Virus record (IMG/VR): IMGVR_UViG_3300027983_002388
Origin: a virus
Taxonomy: Duplodnaviria > Caudoviricetes
Strand: one strand, 5' to 3'
Length of the DNA: 64,000 nucleotides
Shown: positions 891 to 59,140 of the stretch, in pieces
How positions within the stretch are numbered: the stretch's first letter is position 1
Layout: the number at the start of each line of letters is the position of its first letter
The notes under the pieces: generated by a model
Told to the model about the DNA's origin: nothing
Database searches by the model: none
What the model saw: only the letters and a program-made list of their open reading frames with translations
Translations under genes and position numbers: made by a program

Positions 891-892
891 GA

Positions 893-1120: not shown

Positions 1121-1972
1121 ATGAAATTCAGAAAATGGTTTGAAGTTGTGGAGTTAATGAAGCCGAAAGGTGCAAGAAAGAGCAACATTGTAAGGGATGC
1201 TGGCACGAATACAGCCAGAGGTGCGATTCAGTACAAATGGAAAACACAACTGGGAAGCGAAGTAAAGTTATTGTTTACTCCTGAAGGCAATGACGAATAC
1301 ACGGTTGTTTTTTATGTAAACAATACATTGTATGACGATGCTGCATCTAACACAGAAAATGGTAGAGACCCAGAGATTTTGTCTGGTATTTTTTACTTAT
1401 TAAAGTCCAAGTCGGAAGTAATTGGAGCAAAGACTTTATCGTTTAGGGCACATCAATCTCCTGGCGACACTAAAATTGTGCGAAGTCTAAACATAGATTT
1501 GTATAAGCAACAAGCATTGACAGACATTTTCAATTTCTCAAAAGAATCGTCTACAGTTGTTCCTAATGTTGTACCTCCGAGCGAGAGATCGCTGTCGCTT
1601 ATGAAAAAAATCAACAGGCCGATTCTAACAGTATACGATTTTGAAAAGGATCGTTGGTTGAATTTTGCAAAACAAGTAAAATCAGCAATTGAACAAAACG
1701 AATCGATTTACAATTATGTGAATCAGTTAAAAACTGGAGTAGGGGTTGGCGACTTCCGTACTTTGAATTTTGATATCAACAAATTGATTTATTCTTTAAG
1801 CAATTATCAAAACGCATTTATATCAAATACAGAGCAGGGCTGGAGCAAAACCAAAAACAGACGTGCTGTGATATATGAAAAGCTGTTGAATCGTCATATG
1901 TCTAATGACTGGTCTATTAGTGTTGTTCGTGGCGACAATTTTTTGTTGACTAAAAAACATGATGTGGTTTAA
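1121..1972 (+). CDS. hypothetical protein with capsid-targeting-like N-terminus (MKFRKWFEVVE)
   Basis: 283-aa ORF; N-terminal motif shared with many ORFs in the window. Confidence 0.7.
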   Translation: MKFRKWFEVVELMKPKGARKSNIVRDAGTNTARGAIQYKWKTQLGSEVKLLFTPEGNDEYTVVFYVNNTLYDDAASNTENGRDPEILSGIFYLLKSKSEVIGAKTLSFRAHQSPGDTKIVRSLNIDLYKQQALTDIFNFSKESSTVVPNVVPPSERSLSLMKKINRPILTVYDFEKDRWLNFAKQVKSAIEQNESIYNYVNQLKTGVGVGDFRTLNFDINKLIYSLSNYQNAFISNTEQGWSKTKNRRAVIYEKLLNRHMSNDWSISVVRGDNFLLTKKHDVV

Positions 1973-1979
1973 TGAATGC

Positions 1980-2009
1980 GTGAAACAGTGAAACAGTGAA
2001 ACAGTGAAA
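1980..2009 (+). repeat. 8-bp tandem repeat (GTGAAACA)x3.75, intergenic
   Basis: gtgaaaca gtgaaaca gtgaaaca gtgaaa read directly. Confidence 0.9.
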
Positions 2010-2024
2010 GTTGAATAAGGAAAC

Positions 2025-2288
2025 ATGATGTCAGACGAGAATTGGGAATGGGCCGAGCGAGGAATAAGTCCTAATGACAATTTCAAGCCTACGGTGATAA
2101 CGGATGGTGGTCCTTGGGCGACTCACAACATGCCTTGTGCTGTATTGAATCAAACGGAGAAGGCTGTATTGGACATGAATAGTAATGTATTTCAACCGTC
2201 TTGGAAGGCACAATCTGAGGGCTGGCGATTAGTTCATGCTCGGAGTTGGTTTCAAAGGTTTTTGTTAAAAGTTGCGGGTTTGGTTTAG
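2025..2288 (+). CDS. hypothetical protein
   Basis: 87-aa ORF with AAGGA SD. Confidence 0.6.
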   Translation: MMSDENWEWAERGISPNDNFKPTVITDGGPWATHNMPCAVLNQTEKAVLDMNSNVFQPSWKAQSEGWRLVHARSWFQRFLLKVAGLV

Positions 2289-2327
2289 CAATTGTCTATA
2301 ATGTAGCTTAAAGCTATTTATGGACAA

Positions 2328-2849
2328 TTGCGATCTATGATTGACGAAAGACTTCTTCAAGATAAGTACATATTAACAAATGTAAGACAAGGTGGAGTTT
2401 CTGATTTCATTGAAGATGAAATACGTCGCATTTGCGATTGTCCGAAGAAAGGCGAAAAGTCGATTGGCGATTTGTTTATTGATGGAAGTCCGTTAAACAT
2501 AAAGACGATTGACATAGGAAAGAGTTTTCATATGCCCAATTTAGTTTCTGCAAAGAAGGCGTTTGATTTTCTTCAGAAACCAGAAAACAAGCTGCGATAT
2601 ATGTTTGTTGAATACGAAAAAAATGGAGACATAGTGGAAATCAAAAGAGAAACCATCAAAGAGATCGAAGAGTTGTCTGACGTTAAAATACAAGCTCAAG
2701 GAGAGGGAGTAATTCAACTTCAAAGTTTGACATTTAGGGATCACATTGATGAATTCAGAGTGCTTATGCGAGACTTCATCAATAGACAAAACAAAAAATG
2801 GGAAATGCGATGGGACTATTATGGTTTACAACAAAAAACTTTGTTGTAA
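2328..2849 (+). CDS. putative PD-(D/E)xK restriction-endonuclease-like protein
   Basis: SDFIEDE...SIGDLFIDGSPLNIKT pattern (E..D..xNxK). Confidence 0.45.
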   Translation: MRSMIDERLLQDKYILTNVRQGGVSDFIEDEIRRICDCPKKGEKSIGDLFIDGSPLNIKTIDIGKSFHMPNLVSAKKAFDFLQKPENKLRYMFVEYEKNGDIVEIKRETIKEIEELSDVKIQAQGEGVIQLQSLTFRDHIDEFRVLMRDFINRQNKKWEMRWDYYGLQQKTLL

Positions 2850-2864
2850 ACCATAAATACAATT

Positions 2865-3221
2865 ATGACAGCATCATCAGTAACAGGCGTATCAGGACCA
2901 GGCGCAGCAACAAGCAAAGGTCCACACAACAATCGTGACACTTATGTACCATTGGCTGGTCCAAGAGTGATTGTGGCAGGATCGGCAACACTAGACGGAG
3001 GGGGCGGCTTTACACTAGAGTTTCCTACGCCACTACCCGGTGGATTCTACAACTATTCTTACGCTGTAACGCCTCTAGGTTCGGAACGATTCTCTGTAAC
3101 TGTCGGTGGAGCCGAAAACGCTGAAGGCGAGCTAGCAAGCATCACCATCATTGGCAACAGCAACAAGACGATTACTTATATGGTAGTCAGCAATGGGCAA
3201 GCAGCCATTCCTTTAAGCTAA
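2865..3221 (+). CDS. putative virion structural protein, paralog of 11375..11713
   Basis: G/S/T-rich beta-type sequence; N-terminus SVTGVSGPG shared; TAAATA box 5 nt upstream. Confidence 0.55.
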   Translation: MTASSVTGVSGPGAATSKGPHNNRDTYVPLAGPRVIVAGSATLDGGGGFTLEFPTPLPGGFYNYSYAVTPLGSERFSVTVGGAENAEGELASITIIGNSNKTITYMVVSNGQAAIPLS

Positions 3222-3233
3222 AGGAGCAGGCTC

Positions 3234-3686: not shown

Positions 3687-3721
3687 TTTATCTCCTTTTT
3701 GGTGGCTAACGTATTTAGTAT

Positions 3722-4000: not shown

Positions 4001-4076
4001 TTACTTCACGACATATTAGCAAATTAGTGGAGGAAATGTACGCTGAAGATTACAAACTATTTGAGTATATATTTTA

Positions 4077-4319
4077 ATGGAATCATTCAAAGAATATATC
4101 AACGAAGGAAAAGATCGAGGCAACAATAGGATTGAGGCCATATCGACTCTCGTATCTGCTTTGAAAACAGCACTCGGTCAGTACGATATATCAACCCGTC
4201 ATTTCGTCTGGGAGCATCTCAACAGCCAAAAAGGGAAAGAATTGATGGAAAAGATTCTACGCAATCCGAAAACCTACCTTTCCGACAGCGAATTCACCAA
4301 GTTGGTTATAAAGAAATGA
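4077..4319 (+). CDS. small protein with capsid-targeting-like N-terminus (MESFKEYINEG)
   Basis: very close to T4 IP-type MKTYQEFIAE; TATATA 5 nt upstream. Confidence 0.75.
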   Translation: MESFKEYINEGKDRGNNRIEAISTLVSALKTALGQYDISTRHFVWEHLNSQKGKELMEKILRNPKTYLSDSEFTKLVIKK

Positions 4320-4409
4320 CGTGTTGACTTCAGACGAGAAAAGAGTAAATTGTGTTGGATCAGTTGGATCGCCGACTGAAATTTCCGATTCTCTCGAAGG
4401 AGTCTTGCA

Positions 4410-7628: not shown

Positions 7629-7630
7629 CC

Positions 7631-8359
7631 TTAAAATTTCACTTGAGCCAAACACGGCGGCATAATTTGTTTGAGCATTGACACTGGAATATACGCCATG
7701 AGTTTATCTTGCTGGCTTCTAGGATCAGGGCGAACTCGCAATGTTGCAGCACCCATCCGATAGTTACCTCGTTGATCGAATCCCTCATCTTCGGCCCCGG
7801 CTCGCATCTCTTCTATGAGCTTTTTGGCTTCAGCAACGCTTACCAACACGATTTTGCCGCCAACTCGACTTAGAACAGCATAGAACTCAGCTTTGCCAAC
7901 CATGTCTCTACCAGGGACGCCACGGCGATAATCCTTCATGACTTCAAAGAGAATATCATCTCCAGTATCACGATATTTGATTTGAATGGGTTTTTCACCG
8001 CTGGGAGTGTCCCACCATCCGTCAACCTTGTCATATTTATCTTCTTGAGTGGATGGCTCTCTAAGTTTCATTCCACATTGAACCAAGCTATCAAATATCT
8101 GCTTTTCAATACTTTTGCCATATTGAACTCTCTGGTCAATGTCCTGAAATCTATTGCCCATACGCATTTGAGGCGGTGAAGTACGATCAGCAGGGTTTGG
8201 AGCATGACCAAGAGATGGCTTAGGAATTTCTTCTTCAGGATTTGTCACAGGTATCACCGGCTTTTGTTGTTGCATACGACGAGGATCACGGCCAAAGGCT
8301 CCACCTACGGGGCCTCGCCAGCGAGCTTCATTAGTTGATAACCATTTTGAAAAGTTCAT
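7631..8359 (-). CDS. PD-(D/E)xK-like nuclease domain protein with capsid-targeting-like N-terminus (MNFSKWLSTNEA)
   Basis: GKSIEKQI...EDKYDKVDGW...IQIKYR; TAAATA 4 nt upstream. Confidence 0.6.
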   Translation of the reverse strand: MNFSKWLSTNEARWRGPVGGAFGRDPRRMQQQKPVIPVTNPEEEIPKPSLGHAPNPADRTSPPQMRMGNRFQDIDQRVQYGKSIEKQIFDSLVQCGMKLREPSTQEDKYDKVDGWWDTPSGEKPIQIKYRDTGDDILFEVMKDYRRGVPGRDMVGKAEFYAVLSRVGGKIVLVSVAEAKKLIEEMRAGAEDEGFDQRGNYRMGAATLRVRPDPRSQQDKLMAYIPVSMLKQIMPPCLAQVKF

Positions 8360-9353: not shown

Positions 9354-9557
9354 ATGAATTTCAAACATTGGTTATCTCTGAACGAGGGCGGTTGGATTAG
9401 CAAAGGCAAAGCACAAAACTCTTTGTTCAAGCCCGGCCCCAAAGATACAACACCAAAACCACACGATCTAAAACTTTGTGGTATCGGCGGCGGTCCAGGT
9501 CCTGGTGGTGCATGCGCAAGTGCCGGAGGCGGGGCAACGGCTGTTCCTGTTAAGTAA
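9354..9557 (+). CDS. small Gly/Pro-rich protein with capsid-targeting-like N-terminus (MNFKHWLSLNEG)
   Basis: TACATA 5 nt before ATG 9354; no SD. Confidence 0.65.
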   Translation: MNFKHWLSLNEGGWISKGKAQNSLFKPGPKDTTPKPHDLKLCGIGGGPGPGGACASAGGGATAVPVK

Positions 9558-12539: not shown

Positions 12540-13076
12540 TTAATCCTCCAAGATTCCAGCGTGATCGAGAGATTGCACGAGTTTGATTAGATGTTTGCAC
12601 ATTCCTGGCATTTCGAGCGGATTCGCCGAGCCAGGATTTACATTCGCTTCGTACTTCTTTCTGACTCTTCCATACAACGATGTATCTATGTGATCTGTGT
12701 AGTTGAAACGCCATTTGAAATCGTTACAATCACACCGAACCAACACATTGTTCTCTTTATCGAGTCTTTCAAAAACGTAGTGACGACCATCGTTCGCTAC
12801 AATCTCGATCCAGTTCTGGTTGTCTTTGGAGTCGTGATAATTCACGCCTTTGAACAATACCATAGGGGAATATTCTTTTCCGCTTTCTTCACTATGCGCA
12901 ATACCCTTTATGAACAGGGTTTTAACTCCCAAGAAAGGCGTCCAATTCAACTCGATGATCCGAACTAAATCGGTGGCATGTTGTCTTTTGGTCGTCTGGG
13001 GGAAGGCTTGAACCGTACTTGTGTAAAGGTCTTGAAGATTAGATTCTTGAAAAACCAGCCAATTTTGGAAACGCAT
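12540..13076 (-). CDS. SWIM zinc-finger protein with capsid-targeting-like N-terminus (MRFQNWLVFQES)
   Basis: CDCNDF...MCKHL; TAAATA 4 nt before ATG 13076. Confidence 0.75.
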   Translation of the reverse strand: MRFQNWLVFQESNLQDLYTSTVQAFPQTTKRQHATDLVRIIELNWTPFLGVKTLFIKGIAHSEESGKEYSPMVLFKGVNYHDSKDNQNWIEIVANDGRHYVFERLDKENNVLVRCDCNDFKWRFNYTDHIDTSLYGRVRKKYEANVNPGSANPLEMPGMCKHLIKLVQSLDHAGILED

Positions 13077-13554: not shown

Positions 13555-14137
13555 ATGTTTAGACCAGATCAAGTCCATGATGTCATGAAGCTGTACACCA
13601 TCGGTGACGGCGAGCCTAATACTTGATGAAGTTCAAACCGGCGTAGGCTTGACCGGGACAACATGGGCATACGAACATCATGCCGGGCTGCGGCCCGATA
13701 TGATAGCGTTCGGGAAGAAAACGCAGGTCTGTGGCTTCGCTTCTACCACCCGTATTGATGAAGTGCCTGATAATGTATTCAAACAATCCAGTCGTATCAA
13801 TTCGACCTGGGGTGGAAACATTATTGACATGATTAGATTCACGCACATTGCAGAGATCATGAAAGAAGATGGAATCTTAAATCAAGTTGCCATAGTTGGC
13901 GACTACTTCTTAAAGCAGCTTCACACGATTCCACGCATCACTAATGTTCGTGGCAAAGGATTGATGCTGGCTTTTGATTTAGAGACGCCTGACGCACGCA
14001 ACAAGGTCTTAGATAACCTACTAAAAAGAATGACCGTCCTGCCTTGTGGAGAACGGTCAATTCGATTAAGACCACATTTGATATTCTCAATGGCCGACGT
14101 AGACGAGGCCATCGACATCATTAAACACGCCGTTTAA
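13555..14137 (+). pseudogene. lat: L-lysine 6-aminotransferase-like (class III PLP) gene with large internal deletion
   Basis: N-terminal MFRPDQVHDVMKLYTIGDGEP (13555-13617) joined out of frame to LILDEVQTG...AFGKKTQVCG...NSTWGG...RGKGL; roughly 230-240 residues missing by comparison with remembered family length. Confidence 0.75.
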
Positions 14138-15614
14138 GATACTCAAAGAATAATGGCATCTTGTTTTTGTTCCTCAGATTGTGATCTGCAAATTTACTTG
14201 TGTGAGGAGTATCCAAATTTGGTTCTGGCAATCCAAGTTTAGCAAGATCGACTCCCTGTTTTTTCAGCATGGACAATAAGGTGTCCTTGTCTACGCCTGC
14301 CTTTTCAGCAGACGCCATGATTTCTGGAATTTCTGCCTGGAAAACCACAGGTGGCTCTTTTGAAACATCAATCAAATTTTTGAGATGAGACTGTAAAGGA
14401 TCAGATTTTGCTTCTGGTGCTGTTTCTGGTGCTGTTTCTGGTGCTGTTTCTGGAGTTGTTTCTGGTGCTGTTTCTGGAGTTGCTTCTGGTGCTGTTTCTG
14501 GAGTTGCCGCCTGATTCAATCCAGCCTTAACTTGTTTGAGTGCAGCAGCAAAGTCTTCTGTTGGTTGACTTCCAGTCATACCCTTCTCAAGCTCTCCCAA
14601 TGCGTGCATAGCTTGTTGGATAGCATCCGTGTCACGTCCTTGATCTTTCTGTGCTTGATACTCATCGCCAGCTTTACCCCATTGGTTCCAAGCCCCTTTG
14701 GCATTAGCCCATTGACGACCAAACCAATCTTTAGCACCATCGAACATGCCTTCATTGAGGTATTGCCCTTCTTCGATATACCAATCAACAAATTTAACTG
14801 GATCAATACCATGTTCTTGAAGAGTTCGCAGCCCAGTCTTAATTTCATTATGAAGCCTGATCTTACGAGTGAATTCGCCAAATCCATTTGATTCAAAAGA
14901 TGGCGTATCAGCACTAGCCGCTTGAGCAATATTAGCTGGGTTGTTGAGTAGATGCAGCAAATTAACAACTGCTGCTTGGAAAGAAGGTCCGCCAAGTTTT
15001 TCCATCAATGACTTGGACTTAGACATACGCTTAGAAAGTGCATCTACAGCGGTTGCTGCATTCTTGGCATGTTGTGTGTATGCTGGCTGTGGCGTTGATC
15101 CTGGTGGCGTTGATCCTGGTGGCGTTGATCCTGGTGGCGTTGATCCTGGTGGCGTTGATCCTGGTGGCGTTGATCCTGGTGGCGTTGATCCTGGTGGCGT
15201 TGATCCTGGATGAATTGAAGAGTAGGGATTTCCCTCAACGCCTGAGTTAAAACTTTTTGCAATATCTCCTCCCTGCCCTTGTAGCCAGCCACCAACTTTG
15301 CCTCCTAATTCACTAGCTCCTCCTAATGCTCTACCTAATCCATAAGTAACGGCGGAACTTTTTGGTCGATTGGCAGTTTGTTGATAGCCCTGTTTGAATC
15401 TATCGAAAAAACCTTCATTTAGATAAATCTCATTTTTAAGCCATTCTTCAGATGCTTCTGTAAGCAATCCTTGGTCCTGCATACCGATTCCATCGGTTGT
15501 GTACCACTCGACAAAATCGTTAGGATCAATTCCACGTTCGGACATCAAAATGAACGATTCTCTTACCATTCTGAGATTCGTGGTGGTTTTTAGGCTTTCA
15601 GTAAATGTTCTCAT
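14121..15614 (-). CDS. putative internal head/ejected protein with duplicated domain and PPGST/APET repeats
   Basis: MRTFTESL; two GIDP..FV(E/D)WY...LNEG(F/M)FD units. Confidence 0.65.
   Translation of the reverse strand: MRTFTESLKTTTNLRMVRESFILMSERGIDPNDFVEWYTTDGIGMQDQGLLTEASEEWLKNEIYLNEGFFDRFKQGYQQTANRPKSSAVTYGLGRALGGASELGGKVGGWLQGQGGDIAKSFNSGVEGNPYSSIHPGSTPPGSTPPGSTPPGSTPPGSTPPGSTPPGSTPPGSTPQPAYTQHAKNAATAVDALSKRMSKSKSLMEKLGGPSFQAAVVNLLHLLNNPANIAQAASADTPSFESNGFGEFTRKIRLHNEIKTGLRTLQEHGIDPVKFVDWYIEEGQYLNEGMFDGAKDWFGRQWANAKGAWNQWGKAGDEYQAQKDQGRDTDAIQQAMHALGELEKGMTGSQPTEDFAAALKQVKAGLNQAATPETAPEATPETAPETTPETAPETAPETAPEAKSDPLQSHLKNLIDVSKEPPVVFQAEIPEIMASAEKAGVDKDTLLSMLKKQGVDLAKLGLPEPNLDTPHTSKFADHNLRNKNKMPLFFEYLKRRV
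15091..15210 (-). repeat. 15-bp tandem repeat x8 encoding PPGST
   Basis: GGCGTTGATCCTGGT units, identical except the last base of the final unit. Confidence 0.95.
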
Positions 15615-40926: not shown

Positions 40927-41151
40927 ATGAAGACATTTATTCAATGGGCAGGCGAAGTCAAGAAAGAACTGCCTCTGTACATGCAAGACGAAAATACAAA
41001 GCGTGCTGGTATTGCACATTGGGCTTACCCGGACGCATACGTCCGTCAGCAGTATCCAGATGCTTATTTCATGCCTCACGCCGCTGATGCTCTACAGAAA
41101 ATGGGAAAACATCAGCCAAGTCGCAAGGCTCCTGCTGATAGCTCTTGGTAA
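40927..41151 (+). CDS. small protein with capsid-targeting-like N-terminus (MKTFIQWAGE)
   Basis: GAGG SD; 74 aa. Confidence 0.7.
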   Translation: MKTFIQWAGEVKKELPLYMQDENTKRAGIAHWAYPDAYVRQQYPDAYFMPHAADALQKMGKHQPSRKAPADSSW

Positions 41152-44840: not shown

Positions 44841-44873
44841 CTTCCCCATGACGTAAATAACGTCATGGGGAAG
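44841..44873 (+). promoter_or_regulatory. 13-bp hairpin with the TAAATA late box in the loop and the start codon in the 3' arm
   Basis: CTTCCCCATGACG-taaataa-CGTCATGGGGAAG; ATG at 44865. Confidence 0.75.
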
Positions 44874-49948: not shown

Positions 49949-50352
49949 ATGACGAACTTCCAAGAATTCGTTGATCGTAAAAAAACGGTAAAAGTTGGCG
50001 TCGTTGGTTTTTCAGCCCAGAAGTTTGACATCTCTAAGGCAAAAGCCTATATCGTGGCGGCTTTTGACAAGATTGAAAAGGACTTCTCGCCGAAGAACAT
50101 TCATTGCATTTCCGGATTGACCGACCTTGGCATTCCAGCACTGGCGTACCGGGAAGCGCTCTGGAATACGACTTATTCAATGTCGATGAGACGATCTTGG
50201 TAGGGGAAGAGTGGGGCGATGAGAGCGATACATTCCTCTCCATGCTCGATGTCATGGTGAAGGTGGGCGGCGGTAAACAATCGGTAGCAGAGGCTGAAAA
50301 GGCCGAAGCGAACGGGTTGTCGGTGATGAAATTTGATTTGAAGGCCGAATAG
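49949..50352 (+). pseudogene. SLOG-family protein split by a short frameshifting deletion near 50158
   Basis: KVGVVGFS...ISGLTDLGIPALAYREA in one frame; ALEYDLFNVDE..VGEEWGDES.TFL...KVGGGKQS in another. Confidence 0.7.
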
Positions 50353-50441: not shown

Positions 50442-51056
50442 CTAATTGTGACCTTTTCGGGCTTCGCACCAATCAGCAAAAGAGGTCTTATTTGGGAATC
50501 TCTTCTTAATTGCCCGCAAATGACCGGGCCAAGCCTCTGCGAATTTGGGATGCAATTTCATACCCTCCACCTTGTCCAAATCAGCCCATTCCGACGCATC
50601 GTGTTCTTTTGAAAGCTGTACGTCGAAAGGCTTTGCGACAGCCATCAGGTAGGTGTGAAAGTGATGTGCGCCATCTCTGGCGTGGAAGTGTCCGAACCGT
50701 TGTCCCTCTACGGTGCCGCATTCTTCTTTGGATTCTCGCCGAGCCACATCAAGTGGAGCTTCCCCTTCTTTGGCTTTTCCACCGGGAATGCCCCAATGAC
50801 CGGCGTAATCACTTGATCCATCTCTTTTCAACAAGAGAATCTTTTCACCATCGGTGAAAACGATGCCGCCGCCCAATCTACCCCAATATTTTTTGCCGTC
50901 TTTTCCGATCCGATGAAATTGTTCTGCCATGTCGGCCACAGTGGGATATATCTCCTGATGAGTTATTCCCCATTGTTTGCAAATATCGCAAAATGGAATA
51001 TCCGTTGTTTGTTCGTTTGTGATCGCTCCACAATGTTGACAAATATCGTGATTCAT
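50442..51056 (-). CDS. Nudix hydrolase with N-terminal zinc ribbon
   Basis: Nudix box GGKAKEGEAPLDVARRESKEECG; CQHC..CDIC. Confidence 0.9.
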   Translation of the reverse strand: MNHDICQHCGAITNEQTTDIPFCDICKQWGITHQEIYPTVADMAEQFHRIGKDGKKYWGRLGGGIVFTDGEKILLLKRDGSSDYAGHWGIPGGKAKEGEAPLDVARRESKEECGTVEGQRFGHFHARDGAHHFHTYLMAVAKPFDVQLSKEHDASEWADLDKVEGMKLHPKFAEAWPGHLRAIKKRFPNKTSFADWCEARKGHN

Positions 51057-51658
51057 TATCCCTTCGGCCCTCTCTTCAAAGGCACCGGCTTCATTTTAGA
51101 GACATGACGATCTGGTTGTCCCTTCAAATGGTGCATCATATTGTGCAACTCTTTTGTGACATCTGCCGCTGAGTCTCCGTTGCACTTCTGAGCGTGTTGG
51201 ACGGATACGGTTCGACGATCTTTGTTGTAGAAGCCTTTGCTTATAACAAAGCAATTGTGGTCTGTATTCCAAGTCACAACCCCCGTCCATTCTCCGTCAT
51301 CCCAATTACGATACGAGACGAGCAGACGGAGGGGCTTTTCCGTGAAGACGTGTTTGGTGTGATAGCCGTGATTCTTCAGTGCAGCACTAACATAACCCAA
51401 GCATATTTTGGCGAAGCCCTCCAAGGATTCCTTGGATGTAGTTCGATAATTTACTTCAATTGCGTATCTGGATGTCTCCACGGCTTCGACTAGATTCTCT
51501 TCCAGATATTCATGATGGGTTTTCATGCCGCCCCGTAGGGTTGTGGCAAAATACTCTTGACAAATACGCAAGAAGTCCTCTCGCTCTACCTTGAGTTCGG
51601 TATGCGTATCATTTTTTTGCTCATTTCGCCAATTGTGAAAGTCTTTCATTGTTCCCAT
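51056..51658 (-). CDS. protein with capsid-targeting-like N-terminus (MGTMKDFHNWRNE)
   Basis: start at 51658 or 51649; coupled to the Nudix gene. Confidence 0.65.
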   Translation of the reverse strand: MGTMKDFHNWRNEQKNDTHTELKVEREDFLRICQEYFATTLRGGMKTHHEYLEENLVEAVETSRYAIEVNYRTTSKESLEGFAKICLGYVSAALKNHGYHTKHVFTEKPLRLLVSYRNWDDGEWTGVVTWNTDHNCFVISKGFYNKDRRTVSVQHAQKCNGDSAADVTKELHNMMHHLKGQPDRHVSKMKPVPLKRGPKG

Positions 51659-53513: not shown

Positions 53514-56483
53514 ATGGCTGTAATCACAAAATCGTTCCGTGACTTCTTCACTAAGAGTTTTACTGAAGAAAAGGCATACAGAGACTTTGGCACACGACAT
53601 TTCAAACTTTTATATGAAATGGCCCAGCGATTTCACAAACTAAACGCAATGCCAGCAAACATTGATGACGACGACCTAGAATTTCTGGGACAGTTCCCTC
53701 ACGACTATTGGATCAAAGCCAAACAAGCTCGCTATCAAATGTTTTTTGATGCTGTGAAGGGTCTTCACAAGAAAAGACATGAAGAACACGGACAGCCAAA
53801 ACTCAAACAAGCCATTATCACTGCCATCGAAACTGGCGAGTATGGACATCTTCAGGGAGTCATTCCTGATCGGAACATCAACCAATTGAAGAGGGTAGGA
53901 ACTACCCTAAGTGCCAAAGAACGTGCCGATGAAGCCGAAAAGCTCTCGCACGATCATGTGAAAGACAAAACGCCTCACATTGATGAACCACAAGGAGAAA
54001 TTCCATTCACACTCAAGGGATCAAGCGACAAGACAGCCACAAGAAAACCTGTGACGTTTATGGCAAAGCCATTTCTTAATCGACTCTATCACAAATTGGA
54101 AACAACTCCTGGCAATCCTTTTCACCCGGAGTCTGGGCTAAATGGGACGGGCAAGTATGGCCTTGATATGGCTGAACCTATGGATTCAAGAACCATTAAA
54201 TCGCACGACGAAGATGGTGACGAAACTGAAGTCACTTACCCGAATTCTACAGCAGGCATGAAGTTTCCTACGGACTCTCAAATCCGTGACAGAATGATTG
54301 ATTATTTTAATCTTAATGCCCACCGGATGTTCGGTAACTTGCCAGAAGACGCTGAATGGAAGCCCGTTCCTGGAATGCAGGACACTTGGTCTGTAGGGTA
54401 TGTCAGACAAGAGCTTCAAAAAAGAATTGAAGCTCAACTGCGAGTCAGCGGCAAAAAATACGAAAAAGAAAGTGAAATGAGAAAAGAAGCCGCCGACTTA
54501 GTAAAACAGCACATCGTGAAAATGGCTGAATCTGGTCAATTAAAAGGACCGCCGATTCCTGGTCAATTTCCAGATGGCATTCCAATTAAAATTGAGGGCG
54601 GCAAACTTGTGAATCCTCCATTGTATCTTCCGTATCAAATTAAAGATATTAAGATGCGAGATGAAAATGGTGGCGTCAAAGTAGTACAAAAAGCCGTTCC
54701 TGTGGTAAAGCCTGCTCACTTCTTCCGTGAACTCGGAAGTGATGAATCAGATTATGAACACGAATTAGGTGATGATGGTCAGCCAACCGACAAAAGAAAG
54801 TATGATCCAACTACCGGAGAGCCGGTTTATCGGGTTCCTCAAGAAAAATTGAGGGGACACGAAAGACAATTCGTTCATGTTGGAGATGAAGAGTTTCAAA
54901 AGAAAAAACATCGAGCCGCTGGCGCTATTGATTTCAATAGCGAAACAGAACAGGTTATGCACATAACAAAAGGCGATCCTGGTTGGCAAGAAGCCTGGGA
55001 AAAGGCTTTTGGAGATCAACAAAAAGTTGAGATTGATCGTCGTGGTAATGCTACACCTTCAAATAGCGAATCTGGATTCTACGAAGACATCATCGCTGGC
55101 ATAAATCAATGTTTTAAGAGTAGTCATTGTGGTGGAGCTACGCATCATGAACTTGAAATGTTGAAAAACAACATTGAAGACTTCCATCAAATAGTTGTAA
55201 TTAAAATGCTCAATAGCATGGGCGACCCAAATTTGTACACAAGCTCAGGACGCAAAGCCTTTGCTTACAACAAGGTTTCTTCAATTATGCAGAAAGACCT
55301 TGGAAGTGGTGGTGGAACTCGTCGAAAAAGAAACTTGACACAAACTAGCAGAAACACAAGTTTCAGTGCTGGTGGCGAAAAAAATATTGAAGACGATTTA
55401 ATGGGCCAACTCGCTGGTGGTACGGGTAAAATCCGTGGCAGCAAAAAGCGTGGGAAGGGAGATCGCCAATTCGACACATCGGGAATGAACACTCCTTACA
55501 ATTTGACAAACATGAGAGAAGCCTTGATGCAAATGCAAAAGGATGCTCAAGAGGCCGATTCCACAAGCGATGAAGCAAAGAAATTAAGTCAAAGACAAAG
55601 GGGAACAGAAATCATCAATATGCTTCGGGATGGCATAAAAAAACAAATTGATTTCAAAATGTATTTAACAGATACATTGATTGGATTGTACCAACAAGGA
55701 GGAATGGGTAAAGGCGAAGCAGAACAAGCAGCCCAAGCTCAAATGAAAAGTTGGCAGGACGAAGATGGACATAACTCATCTGAGACGTTGATGGCAGCAT
55801 TTCAAAACCACCCACTTGTTCAAAGTGCAATTGGCGCAGCCGGTGAGGATAAAAAACAAGACGGTCAAGTACAACCAACCGACAAAGAGGACAACGCCAA
55901 CGAACAAGAGGCCATGCGATTCTTGCAATCGACATTTGATAAAATGCAGAGTGCAGGTTTTGATGAAGACGACATCAAAGATAAACTATTGGCAAAACCT
56001 GGAGAAAAATACAGTATATTTGTCAAGCAATTGGTCGCACAACAATTTGGCGGCATAAACGATAAAACTACTAAGTTGTTGGATCGTGTACAAGGTGAAA
56101 TCAACAGACGCTTTAAGCTACCATCACCAGCGGCAGCACAAGCGGCCAGAGTTGTCACGACTCCACAAAGCAATGAACTAGCTAAGAAAAAACTAGGACA
56201 AACGCCAGAAGCAGAAGCGAAGCCAGTTCCAACTGTTGCTCCGACTACAAGAATTCCAACACAACAAGTTCCTATTCCTACTGAAAGTGTAAGTGAATTG
56301 TTCGCTAAGAAAAATTGGCTTGGGCTTGCTCACCATCCAGATTATTTGGGAACACACTCTCCAGTATTAGATGCACAAAAATTGAAGTTGCTAAATCACT
56401 TCAAAACAAACAAGGATAAGTACCAGCAGAATGAGATTGAATCTGCTATTGCGAACCTTGAAAGATCAATAAGGAGAGGTTAA
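53514..56483 (+). CDS. 989-aa putative internal/ejected virion protein (MAVITKSFRDFF)
   Basis: long ORF inside the neck module; no catalytic motif recognised. Confidence 0.65.
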   Translation: MAVITKSFRDFFTKSFTEEKAYRDFGTRHFKLLYEMAQRFHKLNAMPANIDDDDLEFLGQFPHDYWIKAKQARYQMFFDAVKGLHKKRHEEHGQPKLKQAIITAIETGEYGHLQGVIPDRNINQLKRVGTTLSAKERADEAEKLSHDHVKDKTPHIDEPQGEIPFTLKGSSDKTATRKPVTFMAKPFLNRLYHKLETTPGNPFHPESGLNGTGKYGLDMAEPMDSRTIKSHDEDGDETEVTYPNSTAGMKFPTDSQIRDRMIDYFNLNAHRMFGNLPEDAEWKPVPGMQDTWSVGYVRQELQKRIEAQLRVSGKKYEKESEMRKEAADLVKQHIVKMAESGQLKGPPIPGQFPDGIPIKIEGGKLVNPPLYLPYQIKDIKMRDENGGVKVVQKAVPVVKPAHFFRELGSDESDYEHELGDDGQPTDKRKYDPTTGEPVYRVPQEKLRGHERQFVHVGDEEFQKKKHRAAGAIDFNSETEQVMHITKGDPGWQEAWEKAFGDQQKVEIDRRGNATPSNSESGFYEDIIAGINQCFKSSHCGGATHHELEMLKNNIEDFHQIVVIKMLNSMGDPNLYTSSGRKAFAYNKVSSIMQKDLGSGGGTRRKRNLTQTSRNTSFSAGGEKNIEDDLMGQLAGGTGKIRGSKKRGKGDRQFDTSGMNTPYNLTNMREALMQMQKDAQEADSTSDEAKKLSQRQRGTEIINMLRDGIKKQIDFKMYLTDTLIGLYQQGGMGKGEAEQAAQAQMKSWQDEDGHNSSETLMAAFQNHPLVQSAIGAAGEDKKQDGQVQPTDKEDNANEQEAMRFLQSTFDKMQSAGFDEDDIKDKLLAKPGEKYSIFVKQLVAQQFGGINDKTTKLLDRVQGEINRRFKLPSPAAAQAARVVTTPQSNELAKKKLGQTPEAEAKPVPTVAPTTRIPTQQVPIPTESVSELFAKKNWLGLAHHPDYLGTHSPVLDAQKLKLLNHFKTNKDKYQQNEIESAIANLERSIRRG

Positions 56484-57370: not shown

Positions 57371-57433
57371 TGAATATTCAGCCCCTTTATGTTTATATAG
57401 ATTGAAGACAAAAACAAAATAAAAGGATGAATT

Positions 57434-57859
57434 ATGTCGCTAGTGGTTCCAAATATTTCCAATGTTCTCATGCTTCAATACATTGTGAACATGATTGGGC
57501 AAGACGGTGCCGCCGCTCCTGCGGGTGGTCAACGTCTGCTTCGTCTTTTTACAAACAATCTAACACCCGGTAAGTCAACCGTAATTGCAGATGTTACTGA
57601 AGCAACGGCACCTGGTTATGTGCCATACACAATGGTAGGAAGCAGTTGGACAACAACATCAAATTTGGGAGTGAATTCCGCAGTTTACAGTGAACAAACT
57701 TTCGCATTTACGACAGGTGTGACCATTTACGGCTACTACGTTACTACAATTGAAGGTACACCTAGATTATTGTGGGTGGAAAGATTTTCCACGGCTCCGT
57801 ACACTTTGCCAGCAGGCGGTGGCGAGATCGCAATATCCCCACGTTTTACATTAAATTGA
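57434..57859 (+). CDS. putative virion structural protein
   Basis: LRLFTNN.TP....ADVTEAT..GY...EQTF.FT...IYGYYV pattern of phage tail-associated proteins. Confidence 0.65.
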   Translation: MSLVVPNISNVLMLQYIVNMIGQDGAAAPAGGQRLLRLFTNNLTPGKSTVIADVTEATAPGYVPYTMVGSSWTTTSNLGVNSAVYSEQTFAFTTGVTIYGYYVTTIEGTPRLLWVERFSTAPYTLPAGGGEIAISPRFTLN

Positions 57860-57883
57860 TTTATATTGACACTTTGACTACTG

Positions 57884-57914
57884 AATGGCGAGAGAGCAAT
57901 CTCTCGCCATTTTT
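57884..57914 (+). terminator. intrinsic terminator with GCAA tetraloop
   Basis: AATGGCGAGAGA-gcaa-TCTCTCGCCATT-TTT. Confidence 0.85.
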
Positions 57915-57933
57915 AATTGTGGATAATTATTTT

Positions 57934-58098
57934 TCATCCACATCTTCCCTGTTTGAATTTGCTAAAGATAACTTTAGCTTCGTTTCCGCATTGGCAACGA
58001 AAAACAACAGGAATTCTATCATTGCTATATGGGCAAAGTAATTCGCATCCATTTTCAATCATGAAAAGAGCAACTTCTTCATTGGTTCTTTTTTTCAT
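57934..58098 (-). pseudogene. truncated homing-endonuclease-type zinc-ribbon repeat
   Basis: CELLCPYSNDRIPVVFRCQCGN....FSKFKQGRCG* stops where CxxC would continue. Confidence 0.5.
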
Positions 58099-58121
58099 TG
58101 TTCCTCCACCATACATACAGC

Positions 58122-58664
58122 ATGACTCTTAAAAATTTGAACGGGACACCGTATCAACTTCGTGGAAGCGTGCAAATGTACGATCCAAATGATCGCACGC
58201 ATGATTTATTTAACCTGTGGGATCAAGAGGCGATCCAACGGGGCGGATCGCCTCTTTACTATTACGAAGTGGTTATTACCCCAAACATGATTGATCCGGT
58301 GTATTTGGAAGCTCGTGGAAAACTGTTTTCAAACAATCCTGTTCAATTATGGTGCAATTACGAGCCGATTCCGTCACAAAACCTAATCAATCAGTTTGGC
58401 ATTGATGCTCCAGATGAAATGAAATTCGAGCTTAACTACCGATCTGTATTACAGAGCATTGGACATCCACCTAAAATTGGATCAAGGTTGTTTACGCCAC
58501 ACCTTAGAGAGAATTGGGTTATTGTTCAAAGAAACCTGGGCGAATTCAAATTATGGGGCGCACTCCGTATTGAATTGATTTGCCAACGATTCCAGGAAGA
58601 CGTGGTTACAGGCGAAGGCAAAGTAACACAAAAACAACCAGATTTGAAAATCAAAATCGTTTAA
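58122..58664 (+). CDS. gp14: neck/head-completion protein (T4 gp14-like)
   Basis: DQEAIQRGGSPLYYY, IDPVYLE, QFGIDAPDE..F, P..G..L. Confidence 0.75.
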   Translation: MTLKNLNGTPYQLRGSVQMYDPNDRTHDLFNLWDQEAIQRGGSPLYYYEVVITPNMIDPVYLEARGKLFSNNPVQLWCNYEPIPSQNLINQFGIDAPDEMKFELNYRSVLQSIGHPPKIGSRLFTPHLRENWVIVQRNLGEFKLWGALRIELICQRFQEDVVTGEGKVTQKQPDLKIKIV

Positions 58665-58678
58665 TCGAGGATACCACA

Positions 58679-59140
58679 ATGAAATCGTTTTATCAGTTCT
58701 ATCAGAAAATGTTAAAAGAAGCTGCTCCGGGTCAACCTGCTCCGGGTCAACCTGCTCCGGGTCAACCTGCTCCGGGTCAACCTGCTCCGGGTCAACCTGC
58801 TCCGGGTCAACCTGCTCCGGGTCAACCGAATGCTCCTGCTGCTCCGATTCAAGGAGGACAGACAGCCCCTCCAGTACCACCAAATCCAATGTCGGACCCT
58901 AAAGTAGCTCAGGCATTTCAGACTATTTCTGGAATTAAAGATCAGAAAATTCAGCAGGCATTTCAACAATTCCAGAAAGCCGCTGGAATCCAGCCTGGAG
59001 GTTCCCCGCAACAAAGTCCAGCATCGCCGCAAGCTCCGGCTTCTCCAAGTCCAGGACAGCCGCAGGCTCAGCCGCAGGCTCAGCCGCAGGCTCAACCACC
59101 GGCTGGTCAGCCCGGTCAACCACAACAACCTCAAAGGTAG
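58679..59140 (+). CDS. Pro/Gln-rich protein with capsid-targeting-like N-terminus (MKSFYQFYQKMLKEA)
   Basis: GAGG SD; APGQP x7, QPQA repeats. Confidence 0.7.
   Translation: MKSFYQFYQKMLKEAAPGQPAPGQPAPGQPAPGQPAPGQPAPGQPAPGQPNAPAAPIQGGQTAPPVPPNPMSDPKVAQAFQTISGIKDQKIQQAFQQFQKAAGIQPGGSPQQSPASPQAPASPSPGQPQAQPQAQPQAQPPAGQPGQPQQPQR
58724..58828 (+). repeat. 15-bp tandem repeat x7 encoding APGQP
   Basis: GCTCCGGGTCAACCT units, identical except the last base of the final unit. Confidence 0.95.

What the first reader, a model, noticed from the sequence alone, without database searches (positions are those of the whole stretch)
1121..59140. Genome-wide family of capsid-targeting-like N-terminal tags on about 17-19 unrelated ORFs: a possible tagged injection payload system
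Seen: otherwise unrelated ORFs start with one amphipathic pattern, M-x(1-4)-F-x-[E/D/Q/K/N/H]-[W/F/Y]-hydrophobic...(L/I)xE. Examples: 1121 MKFRKWFEVVE, 4077 MESFKEYINE, 8359(-) MNFSKWLSTNE, 9354 MNFKHWLSLNE, 13076(-) MRFQNWLVFQE, 15614(-) MRTFTESL, 21969 MSLIGFKEWL, 22879 MKSLKDWRIKE, 23274 MKSFNDFVCLKE, 30278(-) MYGFKQFITD, 35721(-) MLTYKQWKTLNE, 40927 MKTFIQWAGE, 44865 MGKFSFHHWLNLQE, 49949 MTNFQEFVD, 51649(-) MKDFHNWRNE, 53514 MAVITKSFRDFF, 58679 MKSFYQFYQKMLKE; weaker cases are 22541 and 33589. Known: T4 internal proteins carry a roughly 10-residue capsid-targeting sequence (IPIII MKTYQEFIAE) removed by the gp21 protease after (L/I)xE, and IPI* is an injected anti-restriction protein. Inference: this phage uses the tag as a modular address for packaging a much larger and more varied set of proteins, including enzymes, than T4 does.
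Basis: partly seen in the sequence, partly recalled or inferred. Interest (0 to 1): 0.85.

Follow-up and report, generated by a model that had tools for sequence, protein, structure and literature searches.

The report
Expanded T4-style capsid-address tags, huge phage
About one gene in seven in this stretch of a huge freshwater T4-like phage starts with a short peptide built like the tag that phage T4 uses to load proteins into its head and then clip off, which suggests a far larger packaged, and perhaps injected, protein cargo than T4's, but no experiment has tested this.

Summary
Eighteen of the 19 listed N-termini are in the sequence as written. Position 33589 is not a start codon.

- **Enrichment:** a regex for the motif hits 12 of about 100 called genes, against 1.5 expected. 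A tighter seven-residue core sits at residues 1-5 six times, against 0.03 expected.
- **Unrelated carriers:** past residue 20, the tagged proteins show no detectable similarity to each other.
- **Context:** the window is a distant T4-like myovirus (gp15, tail sheath). Its close relatives encode a T4-type S77 prohead protease, a scaffold protein and a gp23-like capsid protein.
- **Match to T4:** the tags copy the mapped layout of the T4 capsid-targeting sequence, with aromatics three residues apart, then a hydrophobic residue, any residue, and Glu.
- **Conservation:** the pattern survives in diverged orthologues while individual residues and synonymous codons change.
- **Late expression:** tags are strongly linked to a TAnATA box 4-5 nt before the ATG, which resembles a T4 late promoter and would give a leaderless mRNA.
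- **Scale:** T4 and a cyanomyovirus show only 2-3 such genes. A 595-kb relative shows about 50 more than chance.
- **Cargo:** it includes a predicted PD-(D/E)xK nuclease and an HExxH metallopeptidase.

Packaging, cleavage and injection are untested. Earlier notes of this scan reported similar tag families on other phage DNA. I rate it a new variant of a known kind.

The parts
1121..1972 (+). Tagged gene, 283 aa. Tag MKFRKWFEVVE (1121-1153). Shine-Dalgarno (SD) site GAGG upstream. No homologue in G001 or LR756511.
   Evidence: no Pfam or PHROG hit
4077..4319 (+). Tagged gene, 80 aa. Tag MESFKEYINE (4077-4106) has the exact T4 IPII/IPIII layout. TATATA box at 4066-4071, 5 nt before the ATG.
7631..8359 (-). 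Tagged gene, 242 aa. Tag MNFSKWLSTNE (8327-8359), then a roughly 60-aa low-confidence linker, then a PD-(D/E)xK nuclease-like body (residues 74-242). TAAATA box at 8364-8369.
   Evidence: (56 of 71 homologues keep the tag)
9354..9557 (+). Tagged gene, 67 aa. Tag MNFKHWLSLNE (9354-9386). TACATA box at 9343-9348. No SD.
12540..13076 (-). Tagged gene, 178 aa. Tag MRFQNWLVFQE (13044-13076). TAAATA box at 13081-13086. The LR756511 orthologue starts MNFSGWLNE.
   Evidence: (phrog_18980 on the C-terminal part)
14121..15614 (-). Doubtful member, 497 aa. N-terminus MRTFTESLK has no second aromatic.
21969..22229 (+). Tagged gene, 86 aa. Tag MSLIGFKEWLSKTAPE (21969-22016). TAAATA box at 21958-21963. No SD.
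22541..22879 (+). Plausible variant, 112 aa. N-terminus MSSFQRLWE. The LR756511 orthologue starts MTFLEAWE.
22876..23274 (+). Plausible variant, 132 aa. N-terminus (M)MKSLKDWRIKE, with Leu in place of the first aromatic.
23274..23672 (+). Tagged gene, 132 aa. Tag MKSFNDFVCLKE (23274-23309). SD present.
29973..30278 (-). Tagged gene, 101 aa. Tag MYGFKQFITD ends in Asp. TTAATA box at 30283-30288 (TAAATA in G001). The LR756511 orthologue starts MDGFKEFFAE. Weak helix-turn-helix hits below the Pfam gathering score.
34753..35721 (-). Tagged gene, 322 aa. Tag MLTYKQWKTLNE (35686-35721). The body alternates Lys-rich and Asp/Glu-rich runs. It has the highest codon-usage score per residue in the window. 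Candidate major internal or prohead-core protein.
   Evidence: (tag kept in about 50 of 57 homologues)
40927..41151 (+). Tagged gene, 74 aa. Tag MKTFIQWAGE (40927-40956) has the exact T4 layout. The LR756511 orthologue starts MVKTFMQWAEE.
44841..44873 (+). Perfect 14-bp hairpin. The TAAATA box (44854-44859) lies across its 5-nt loop and adjoining stem bases, and the ATG of gene 44865 lies in its 3' arm.
   Evidence: -25.3 kcal/mol, z = -7.7; none of 200 shuffles folds as well
44865..45635 (+). Tagged gene, 256 aa. Tag MGKFSFHHWLNLQE (44865-44906). The body has an invariant HExxH (HHEAEHI) and is a predicted zincin-type metallopeptidase.
   Evidence: (18 of 18 homologues tagged)
49949..50203 (+). 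Tagged gene, 84 aa. Tag MTNFQEFVD ends in Asp. No homologue in G001 or LR756511.
51056..51649 (-). Tagged gene, 197 aa. Tag MKDFHNWRNE (51620-51649). The LR756511 orthologue keeps a tag (MLNFKDYVEE) although the adjoining linker does not align.
53514..56483 (+). Plausible member, 989 aa, a hydrophilic protein next to neck and tail genes. N-terminus MAVITKSFRDFFTKSFTEE. The aromatic pair is kept in G001 at 50% overall identity.
58679..59140 (+). Tagged gene, 153 aa. Tag MKSFYQFYQKMLKE (58679-58720), followed by PGQPA repeats.
60136..63720 (+). T4-type tail genes that fix the lineage: gp15 tail sheath stabiliser (60136-61137), a 73-aa ORF, and gp18 tail sheath (61357-63720).
   Evidence: PF16724 E = 1.4e-23; PF04984 and PF17482

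Best explanation
**What it is.** The shared N-termini are T4-type capsid-targeting propeptides. The window belongs to a huge freshwater phage with T4-type head and tail genes; one contig carrying an identical window protein is 462,616 bp long.

**Proposed mechanism.**
1. A 9-19-residue N-terminal peptide docks the newly made protein onto the scaffolding core of the prohead. The peptide has two aromatics three residues apart, then a hydrophobic residue, then a Glu within a few residues.
2. The gp21-type S77 prohead protease then cuts after that Glu. The mature protein stays inside the capsid, and it may leave with the DNA at infection.
3. Many of these genes are transcribed from a T4-late-like TAnATA box placed 4-5 nt before the ATG, so the late mRNA would start at or next to the AUG (leaderless). 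For gene 44865 a hairpin would hide the AUG on any longer read-through transcript.
4. Promoter, start codon and tag together form a compact unit found in front of unrelated genes.

**Shown here.** The motif, its restriction to N-termini, the unrelated bodies, conservation at the peptide level, the lineage, the protease in relatives, and the link to the box.

**Inferred.** Docking, cleavage, late leaderless transcription and injection.
For: **Lineage.**
- The window encodes gp15 and gp18.
- G001 is the syntenic relative at about 85-95% amino-acid identity. It encodes the S77 protease (E = 4.8e-27), a gp22-like scaffold, a portal, and a capsid protein 29% identical to T4 gp23.
- LR756511 also has the S77 protease.

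**Match to the T4 tag.**
- T4 IPII and IPIII start MKTYQEFIAE, and IPI starts MKTFKEF.
- In T4, residues 4 and 7 direct targeting and residues 8 and 10 direct processing, and gp21 cuts after L/I-x-E (PMC9026906).
- The window has MESFKEYINE, MKTFIQWAGE, MLTYKQWKTLNE and similar tags.

**Enrichment and position.** In LR756511 the regex hits 73 genes against 24.5 expected, and in G001 25 against 5.3.

**Unrelated bodies.** Each tagged protein is its own family within its genome: 12 of 12, 25 of 25 and 73 of 73.

**Selection acts on the peptide.**
- Synonymous codons are mixed inside the tags.
- All 6 window tagged genes that have an LR756511 orthologue keep a tag there, with changed residues.
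- The tag is kept in 18 of 18, 56 of 71, and about 50 of 57 homologues in three families.
- Distant homologues of the nuclease-like body lack both tag and linker. The tag is therefore an add-on.

**Residues around the first Glu.** L, F and W are enriched at P3 and A, S, G and N at P1'. Head proteins of G001 also carry hydrophobic-x-E near their N-termini: the capsid protein starts MNANSRFLNE-A, and the protease contains LNLNE-S.

**Late-gene signal.**
- TAnATA-N4-5-ATG precedes 30 of 73 tagged genes against 26 of 1047 untagged in LR756511 (p = 9e-24). In the window the figures are 5 of 12 against 3 of 88.
- Gene 44865 has the hairpin described above.
- Small sigma-70 region-2 ORFs are present in G001 and LR756511.

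**Controls.** By the same method, T4 gives 10 hits against 6.4 expected, Syn33 7 against 3.4, and XacN1 15 against 11.3.
Against: - No proteomic, N-terminal sequencing or expression data exist for this clade. No RNA runs hold the window.
- The window's own genome is not held, so its protease is inferred from relatives.
- Only 7 of 17 tags have L or I at P3. Others have V, F, T, A, R or W, and two end in Asp, which blocks processing in T4.
- Tag length and Glu position vary (Glu at +5, +6 or +8 from the first aromatic), which is looser than in T4.
- Having the S77 protease is not sufficient: XacN1 has it and shows no enrichment.
- No homologue of T4 gp55 was found by sequence, so the late-promoter reading rests on motif, position and one strong hairpin.
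- A packaged active nuclease next to the phage's own DNA would need an explanation.
- The regexes were refined after I had seen the data. Only the rule was fixed in advance.
Confidence: 0.6

Rival explanations
1. The tag does load proteins into the prohead, but the tagged proteins are mainly assembly parts of a very large capsid (core, scaffold or inner-body material). They would be degraded or stay in the head and would not be an injected effector payload.
For: - The best-conserved and apparently most highly expressed tagged protein (34753-35721) is a low-complexity acidic and basic protein, like prohead-core and internal proteins.
- In T4, gp22, gp67, gp68 and gp21 all carry (L/I)-x-E within their first 10 residues.
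- The portal N-terminus of G001 and LR756511 also fits the regex.
- Giant phages such as phiKZ and SPN3US build inner bodies from many processed proteins (PMC5694885).
Against: - Tagged proteins include a nuclease-fold protein and an HExxH peptidase.
- In the relative they include a CCA/poly(A)-type nucleotidyltransferase and an RNA-repair HAD domain. These look like effectors rather than scaffold.
- Most tagged genes are accessory and turn over quickly: 12 of 18 have no LR756511 homologue.
Confidence: 0.17
2. The peptide is an address or recognition signal for a different partner. Candidates are another phage protease (the window encodes an S8 subtilase at 26968-27924), a chaperone, a modifying enzyme, or another assembly or compartment.
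For: - Earlier notes of this scan describe an N-terminal tag in phage RB43 that turned out to be linked to a radical-SAM enzyme rather than the capsid (e1-127136, unchecked by me).
- The S77 protease occurs without tag expansion in XacN1, T4 and Syn33.
- P3 is often not L or I.
Against: - The close sequence match to the experimentally mapped T4 CTS in a T4-related phage is hard to explain otherwise.
- The tag ends in Glu, the P1 residue of gp21-type proteases, whereas subtilases usually prefer hydrophobic P1 (my own knowledge).
- Tagged genes are scattered and have no constant neighbouring gene.
Confidence: 0.13
3. The conserved 5' coding sequence is an mRNA-level feature needed to translate leaderless or SD-less late transcripts, and the peptide itself has no role.
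For: - Many tagged genes lack an SD and have the box 4-5 nt before the ATG.
- Tag codons lean slightly towards A or T at the third position: AAA 68% against 48% in gene bodies.
Against: - Ten of 17 window tagged genes have ordinary SD sites.
- Both synonymous codons are used freely: TTT/TTC 60/40 and GAA/GAG 79/21.
- Orthologues keep the amino-acid pattern while changing residues and tag length.
- Boxed genes without tags exist (2865, 37046).
Confidence: 0.05
4. The pattern is a chance or compositional artefact, or a functionless remnant of one duplicated leader.
For: - The regexes were shaped after the data had been seen.
- The loose regex has a sizeable background: 24.5 of 1120 genes in LR756511.
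Against: - Enrichment is 8-fold to 200-fold over internal positions and shuffles.
- The rule fixed in advance is also significant.
- The motif is restricted to the N-terminus: 39 N-terminal against 10 internal occurrences in about 250,000 positions.
- The pattern is kept across orthologues at 35-60% identity.
Confidence: 0.03

Closest known systems
Capsid targeting sequence (CTS) of phage T4 internal proteins IPI, IPII, IPIII and Alt (Mullaney and Black 1996; reviews PMC9026906, PMC3012670)
   Same: - It sits at the extreme N-terminus and is 10-19 residues long.
- It has aromatic residues three apart (T4 Y4/F7), then hydrophobic-x-Glu.
- It is fused to otherwise unrelated proteins.
- The phage lineage has a gp21-type S77 protease and a gp22 scaffold.
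- Two window tags (MESFKEYINE, MKTFIQWAGE) have the exact T4 layout.
   Different: - Scale: about 14-17 of roughly 100 genes here, about 50 above chance in a 595-kb relative, and 13 of 15 consecutive genes in one IMG/VR contig. T4 has 3-4.
- Trp is the commonest second aromatic.
- Spacing to the Glu is variable, and P3 is often not L or I.
- Carriers range from 67 to 989 aa and are not mainly small basic proteins.
- Many are driven from a box directly abutting the ATG.
- Function is untested here.
Long N-terminal propeptides of ejection and inner-body proteins in giant phages phiKZ, 201phi2-1 and SPN3US (PMC5694885, PMC7411985)
   Same: - These are large phages that load many different proteins into the head.
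- A diverged gp21 homologue processes them after Glu in a short motif.
- The propeptides are thought to target the proteins to the prohead.
   Different: - Those propeptides are mostly over 100 residues long and are not a shared short motif.
- Their cleavage motif is S/A/G-x-E.
- Those phages are not T4-type in their tail and head gene set.
T4 late promoters (TATAAATA) and the hairpin control of T4 genes e, soc and 49 (my own knowledge; not checked in a paper here)
   Same: - An A/T-rich TAnATA box lies just upstream of late genes.
- For gene 44865 a hairpin holds the box in its loop and the start codon in its 3' arm. Only transcripts that start inside the hairpin would be translatable.
   Different: - The box lies 4-5 nt from the ATG, so the transcript would have no leader and no SD, whereas T4 late mRNAs have leaders.
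- No gp55 homologue was found by sequence. Only small sigma-70 region-2 ORFs were found.
Mobile promoter cassettes (PeSL) that flank and shuffle accessory early genes in T4-type phages (Arbiol et al. 2010; recalled from memory, not read here)
   Same: A short repeated regulatory unit stands in front of many unrelated accessory genes. In contig L020 a roughly 30-nt upstream element plus ATG plus tag recurs before successive genes.
   Different: - The unit here is late rather than early.
- It includes the first 10 or so codons, so it would give a protein address as well as expression.
- A role in recombination is only a conjecture.

Membership tests
T4-type capsid targeting sequence (CTS) propeptide | Located at the free N-terminus of the precursor | tested here: met
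   The seven-residue core starts at residues 1-5 in 6 window genes, against 0.03 expected, and occurs once in 18,196 internal positions. Across the window, G001 and LR756511 there are 39 N-terminal against 10 internal occurrences.
T4-type capsid targeting sequence (CTS) propeptide | Targeting determinants: aromatic residues at positions 4 and 7 (three apart) | tested here: met
   T4 IPII/IPIII MKTYQEFIAE and IPI MKTFKEF; determinants per PMC9026906. All 14 solid window tags have [FY]-x-x-[WFY]. The first aromatic is at residue 3-4 in most. Exact T4 layout: 2 genes against 0.018 expected.
T4-type capsid targeting sequence (CTS) propeptide | Ends in a gp21 cleavage motif, (L/I)-x-E | tested here: inconclusive
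   Seven of 17 window tags end in L/I-x-E (INE, LNE twice, IKE, LKE twice, LQE). Others have V, F, T, A or R at P3, and two end in Asp. In the pooled set P3 is enriched for L, F and W, and P1' for A, S, G and N.
T4-type capsid targeting sequence (CTS) propeptide | The phage encodes a gp21-type (Peptidase_S77) prohead protease and a gp22-type scaffolding core | tested here: met
   Met in the syntenic relative G001 (S77 E = 4.8e-27, gp22-like ORF next to it) and in LR756511. The window's own genome is not held, so for this phage itself it is an inference.
T4-type capsid targeting sequence (CTS) propeptide | The same tag is fused to unrelated mature proteins | tested here: met
   No BLASTP similarity between bodies within any genome. 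Distant homologues of the 7631-8359 body lack the tag and linker.
T4-type capsid targeting sequence (CTS) propeptide | The tag is sufficient and needed for incorporation into the prohead and is removed by the protease | not testable with these tools
   No virion proteome or expression data exist for this clade. No RNA runs hold the window. The XacN1 proteome paper covers a phage without tag enrichment.
T4-like myovirus (T4-type structural module) | T4-type tail sheath, sheath stabiliser gp15, gp23-like capsid protein, portal, S77 protease | tested here: met
   gp15 and gp18 in the window. The capsid protein, portal, protease and scaffold are in G001. Thousands of T4-like records match the sheath and capsid proteins at under 45% identity.
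PD-(D/E)xK nuclease (body of 7631-8359) | Restriction-endonuclease-like fold with a conserved acidic ... (E/Q)-x-K catalytic signature | tested here: inconclusive
   The body is modelled at pLDDT above 90. Best Foldseek hit is I-Ssp6803I (E = 8.4e-4, probability 1.0), followed by SPARDA nuclease domains, DpnI, PvuII and Hjc. TM-scores are low (0.28-0.47). Invariant residues are E85, D107, D113, Q126 and K128. No Pfam match.
Zincin-type metallopeptidase (body of 44865-45635) | HExxH zinc-binding motif plus a third ligand on a zincin fold | tested here: inconclusive
   H136-E137-x-x-H140 is invariant in 19 sequences, as are G170-E171 and H175. The model has pLDDT 90.6. Fold hits are weak only: selecase, abylysin, ImmA/IrrE, SprT, M48 (E > 0.007). 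No Pfam match.

The most novel reading that the evidence does not exclude
Huge T4-like phages of fresh water have turned the T4 capsid-targeting sequence into a general, portable unit made of a late promoter, a leaderless start codon and an address tag. The unit could turn any gene into a capsid-loaded, DNA-co-injected effector. If so, 5-15% of the genome is a sequence-predictable injected proteome, including nucleases, proteases and RNA-repair enzymes, that acts before any phage gene is expressed. The repeated units would also serve as recombination sites that shuffle this cargo between phages.
Probability: 0.3. Interest if true: 0.8.

Novelty: new variant of a known kind. Interest (0 to 1): 0.6.

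Why it matters
If the tags work as in T4, the first 10-15 codons of a gene would predict which proteins of uncultured huge phages travel inside the capsid. That would give a direct list of candidates for early counter-defence and host take-over. Most of them are proteins with no known family. The list also includes a nuclease-fold protein, a metallopeptidase and, in relatives, tRNA-repair-type enzymes.

It would also show that the natural capacity of the CTS system is an order of magnitude larger than in T4, which is relevant to using T4-type heads as protein-delivery vehicles.

The tight link to a promoter-like box abutting the ATG suggests that leaderless late mRNAs are common in this clade.

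This is an extension of a known mechanism, not a new one. Reviews already suggest that the CTS lets T4-like phages package varied proteins. Earlier notes of this scan reported comparable tag families in other large phages.

Tried and rejected
- **Own genome.** It is not held. Looking up the large contig through a window protein returned only a 906-bp contig. The protease could therefore not be shown in the phage itself.
- **Close relatives in GenBank phages.** Megablast of 20 kb found no match.
- **The 322-aa protein in GenBank phages.** tblastn with the whole protein or its first 42 residues found nothing.
- **Pfam and PHROGs on tagged proteins.** Pfam gave no hit at or above gathering score on any tagged window protein; PHROGs, run on 10 of them, gave nothing informative. 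Pfam on the L020 array also found nothing.
- **ESM Atlas.** Look-ups for two tagged proteins returned only unnamed viral clusters.
- **XacN1 virion proteome as a proxy test.** XacN1 shows no tag enrichment, and its two candidate ORFs (117, 314) are not mentioned in the paper's text. I dropped this line.
- **T4 gp55 homologue.** None was found by the genome search or by phmmer. Only small sigma-70 region-2 ORFs were found.
- **Expression data.** No RNA run holds the window.
- **Literature.** Four full-text searches found no paper describing large CTS-tag families in huge or environmental T4-like phages. LR756511 is not cited in the library.
- **Paralogous gene family.** Rejected, because the bodies are unrelated.
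- **Signal peptide.** Rejected. The tags are short, charged and amphipathic. True signal peptides in the window look different, for example 4410 MKKFLSVMAAIAVLVAW.

Full report
**What the window is.** Composition is even at 40-47% G+C and there are no tRNA genes. An ad hoc codon-usage gene caller gave about 100 genes on both strands. Pfam identifies several of them:
- T4-type gp15 tail sheath stabiliser (60136-61137) and tail sheath (61357-63720)
- NAMPT and a glutamate dehydrogenase
- an S8 subtilase
- two Dam-class methyltransferases
- sugar-nucleotide enzymes

The whole genome is not held. The nearest sequence available is G001, a 223-kb IMG/VR contig. It is syntenic but inverted, and its proteins are mostly 85-97% identical. 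G001 encodes a Peptidase_S77 (T4 gp21) prohead protease, a gp22-like scaffold, a portal, and a capsid protein 29% identical to T4 gp23. That capsid protein is 80% identical to the one in LR756511, an unannotated 595-kb "uncultured phage" record that also has the S77 protease. One window protein occurs letter for letter on a 462,616-bp contig. The window's DNA is held in freshwater and estuary metagenomes from several studies. The window is therefore part of a huge freshwater T4-like phage.

**Checking the observation.** Eighteen of the 19 listed N-termini are present as written. 33589 is not a start; the gene there begins at 33625 and is an untagged epimerase. Four tests address chance:
- The motif regex hits 12 of 100 genes. 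Expected is 1.5 at internal positions and 1.6 in shuffles of residues 2-22, with a maximum of 6 in 2000 shuffles.
- A tighter seven-residue core starts at residues 1-5 six times, against 0.03 expected, and occurs once elsewhere in 18,196 positions.
- A rule fixed in advance from T4 IPII/IPIII (M-x-x-aromatic-x-x-aromatic-hydrophobic-x-E) gives 2 hits against 0.018 expected in the window (P = 1.7e-4). In LR756511 it gives 7 against 0.35 (P = 9e-8).
- Bodies of tagged proteins are unrelated within each genome: 12, 25 and 73 single-member families.

I grade 14 sites as solid, 3 as plausible variants, 1 as doubtful and 1 as wrong.

**The constraint acts on the peptide.**
- Synonymous codons are mixed inside the tags: TTT/TTC 60/40 and GAA/GAG 79/21.
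- All six window tagged genes that have an LR756511 orthologue face an orthologue that also starts with a tag, but with different residues. Examples are MKDFHNWRNE against MLNFKDYVEE, and MYGFKQFITD against MDGFKEFFAE.
- In three families searched in the large protein collection, the tag pattern is kept in about 50 of 57, 18 of 18 and 56 of 71 homologues. The distance to the Glu varies within a family.
- Distant homologues of the 7631-8359 body start directly at the folded domain, with no tag or linker. The tag is therefore an appended module.

**Comparison with T4.**
- The T4 record gives IPII and IPIII as MKTYQEFIAE followed by A, and IPI as MKTFKEF...ITE followed by A.
- A review of the Black laboratory's work states that the first 10 residues of IPIII suffice for packaging. 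Residues 4 and 7 carry the targeting, residues 8 and 10 the processing, Asp at position 10 blocks processing but not targeting, and gp21 cuts after L/I-x-E (PMC9026906).
- The tags here have the same layout. Anchored on the first aromatic, the pooled logo reads M-[K/L]-[S/T/D/N]-F-[K/R]-[E/Q/D]-[W/F/Y]-[L/F/V/I], with Glu peaking at +5, +6 and +8.
- Around the first Glu, L, F and W are enriched at P3 and A, S, G and N at P1'.
- Head proteins of G001 carry similar N-terminal hydrophobic-x-E sites (the capsid protein starts MNANSRFLNE-A, and the protease contains LNLNE-S). So do T4 gp21, gp22, gp24, gp67 and gp68.
- Only 7 of 17 window tags have L or I at P3, so the cleavage part of the membership test is inconclusive.

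**Scale and breadth.**

| Genome | Regex hits | Expected |
|---|---|---|
| Window | 12 of 100 genes | 1.5 |
| G001 | 25 of 313 | 5.3 |
| LR756511 | 73 of 1120 | 24.5 |
| T4 | 10 of 274 | 6.4 |
| Cyanomyovirus Syn33 | 7 of 211 | 3.4 |
| XacN1 | 15 of 568 | 11.3 |

The recognisable T4 hits are IPII, IPIII and gp61.1. Syn33 has two convincing candidates.

An exact-pattern scan of IMG/VR for M-N-F-x-x-W-L-x-L-N-E found eight contigs, five of them 188-323 kb long. In one (L020, 28% G+C), 13 of 15 consecutive genes begin MNFKNWLL..E or MKTF..., and only two pairs of bodies are related. The expansion is therefore a property of certain large environmental T4-like lineages and not of all phages with an S77 protease. 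I found no paper that describes it. Reviews say only that T-even relatives have other CTS-like basic proteins and that the CTS may let T4-like phages package varied proteins.

**A linked regulatory signal.** Many tagged genes lack a Shine-Dalgarno site and instead have TAAATA, or a one-base variant, ending 4-5 nt before the ATG.

| Genome | Tagged genes with TAnATA-N4-5-ATG | Untagged genes with it | p |
|---|---|---|---|
| LR756511 | 30 of 73 | 26 of 1047 | 9e-24 |
| Window | 5 of 12 | 3 of 88 | 5e-4 |
| G001 | 8 of 25 | 8 of 288 | 4e-6 |

- From my own knowledge, the T4 late promoter is TATAAATA centred near -10. A box at this distance would start transcription at or next to the AUG, giving a leaderless mRNA.
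- For gene 44865 the box lies across the loop of a perfect 14-bp hairpin (-25.3 kcal/mol, z = -7.7) whose 3' arm contains the AUG. This is the arrangement known for T4 genes e, soc and 49.
- Two other boxed genes have weaker versions of this hairpin, and the rest have none.
- G001 and LR756511 encode small sigma-70 region-2 proteins, but no sequence homologue of T4 gp55 was found.
- In L020 a roughly 30-nt upstream element plus ATG plus tag recurs before successive genes, so promoter, start codon and tag behave as one unit.
- I treat late leaderless transcription as a supported inference. It has not been shown directly.

**What the cargo is.**
- No Pfam family at or above gathering score matches any tagged window protein. 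The only hits are a few weak sub-threshold ones, such as helix-turn-helix on 29973-30278.
- With alignments of homologues, AlphaFold2 gave confident models for two of them.
  - 44865-45635 (pLDDT 90.6) has an invariant HHEAEH (HExxH). It gives weak fold matches to minimal zincins, ImmA/IrrE and SprT.
  - 7631-8359 has the tag, a roughly 60-residue low-confidence linker, and a body with a restriction-endonuclease-like fold. Hits are I-Ssp6803I (E = 8.4e-4), SPARDA nuclease domains, PvuII and Hjc. Invariant residues include D113, Q126 and K128.
- 34753-35721 alternates Lys-rich and Asp/Glu-rich runs and has the highest codon-usage score per residue. This fits an abundant internal or core protein.
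- In LR756511, tagged proteins include a poly(A)/CCA-type nucleotidyltransferase, an RNA-repair HAD domain, a C39-like peptidase and a tRNA-ligase phosphodiesterase domain. With about a third of regex hits there expected by chance, each of those needs its own check.

**Verdict.** The best explanation, at about 0.6, is a T4-type capsid-targeting and protease-clipped propeptide system that has expanded roughly tenfold and is often coupled to a late, probably leaderless, promoter-start unit. Whether the cargo is injected or is mainly capsid-internal building material is open. A different binding partner cannot be excluded without experiments. The mechanism itself is known from T4, so this is a new variant of a known kind. 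Earlier notes of this scan, on this genome and on other large phages, reported the same kind of tag family. I re-tested the hairpin and HExxH claims of one of them and found that both hold.

Noticed in passing
window 8412-8688 (+): A short ORF encodes only the conserved C-terminal end of a gp23-like major capsid protein (…GYFFAPYVPLTRTP…). G001 has a matching 103-aa ORF (177667-177978). It may be a capsid-gene fragment or a mini-gene.
   Followed up: partly
window 2865-3221 (+) and 11375-11713 (+): Two small paralogues share a different N-terminus (M-x-A-x-SVTGVSGPG). 2865 has a TAAATA box 5 nt before its ATG; 11375 has one 2 nt before its ATG. In G001 one copy lies next to the major capsid gene. 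They may be late virion or decoration proteins.
   Followed up: no
window 44841-44873 (+): A perfect 14-bp hairpin has TAAATA lying across its loop and the start codon of the HExxH gene in its 3' arm (-25.3 kcal/mol, z = -7.7). This is the T4 e/soc/49-type device that silences read-through transcripts.
   Followed up: yes
window 9319-9353 and 21934-21968 (+): Two tagged genes share the same upstream layout: a terminator-like T run, then TTGCGCCAA, then the TAnATA box, then the ATG. TTGCGCCAA may be a further promoter element.
   Followed up: no
window 16931-18190 (+): A full-length Glu/Leu/Phe/Val dehydrogenase (E = 6e-62), 97% identical between the window and G001. This is an unusual auxiliary metabolic gene for a phage. 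NAMPT lies at 48491-49906.
   Followed up: no
window 33431-33589 (-): A 52-aa ORF starts MKLRNFWLNKSNE and is conserved in G001. It may be a tag variant with adjacent aromatics.
   Followed up: no
L020 (IMGVR_UViG_3300009161_000023) 259-13038: Thirteen of 15 consecutive genes start MNFKNWLL..E or MKTF... Most are preceded by a near-identical 30-nt element ending in CATAAATACACT just before the ATG. This is a tandem array of promoter-start-tag units on mostly unrelated bodies.
   Followed up: partly
T4 NC_000866 18966-19130 (-), gene 61.1: The 54-aa hypothetical protein gp61.1 of T4 begins MKTFKEFIKE. That is a CTS-like N-terminus outside the known internal-protein genes.
   Followed up: no
protein P0044 (homologue of window 34753-35721): A tagged homologue lies on a 546-kb NCBI contig labelled 'MAG: Crenarchaeota archaeon'. 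This is probably a huge-phage contig binned with an archaeon.
   Followed up: no
G001 188380-190284 (-) and LR756511 526639-528489 (-): The portal protein N-terminus (MKRKLISFDAFKKIEE...) also fits the aromatic-pair-plus-Glu pattern. T4 portal is not processed, so this may be a chance match or a core-binding element.
   Followed up: no
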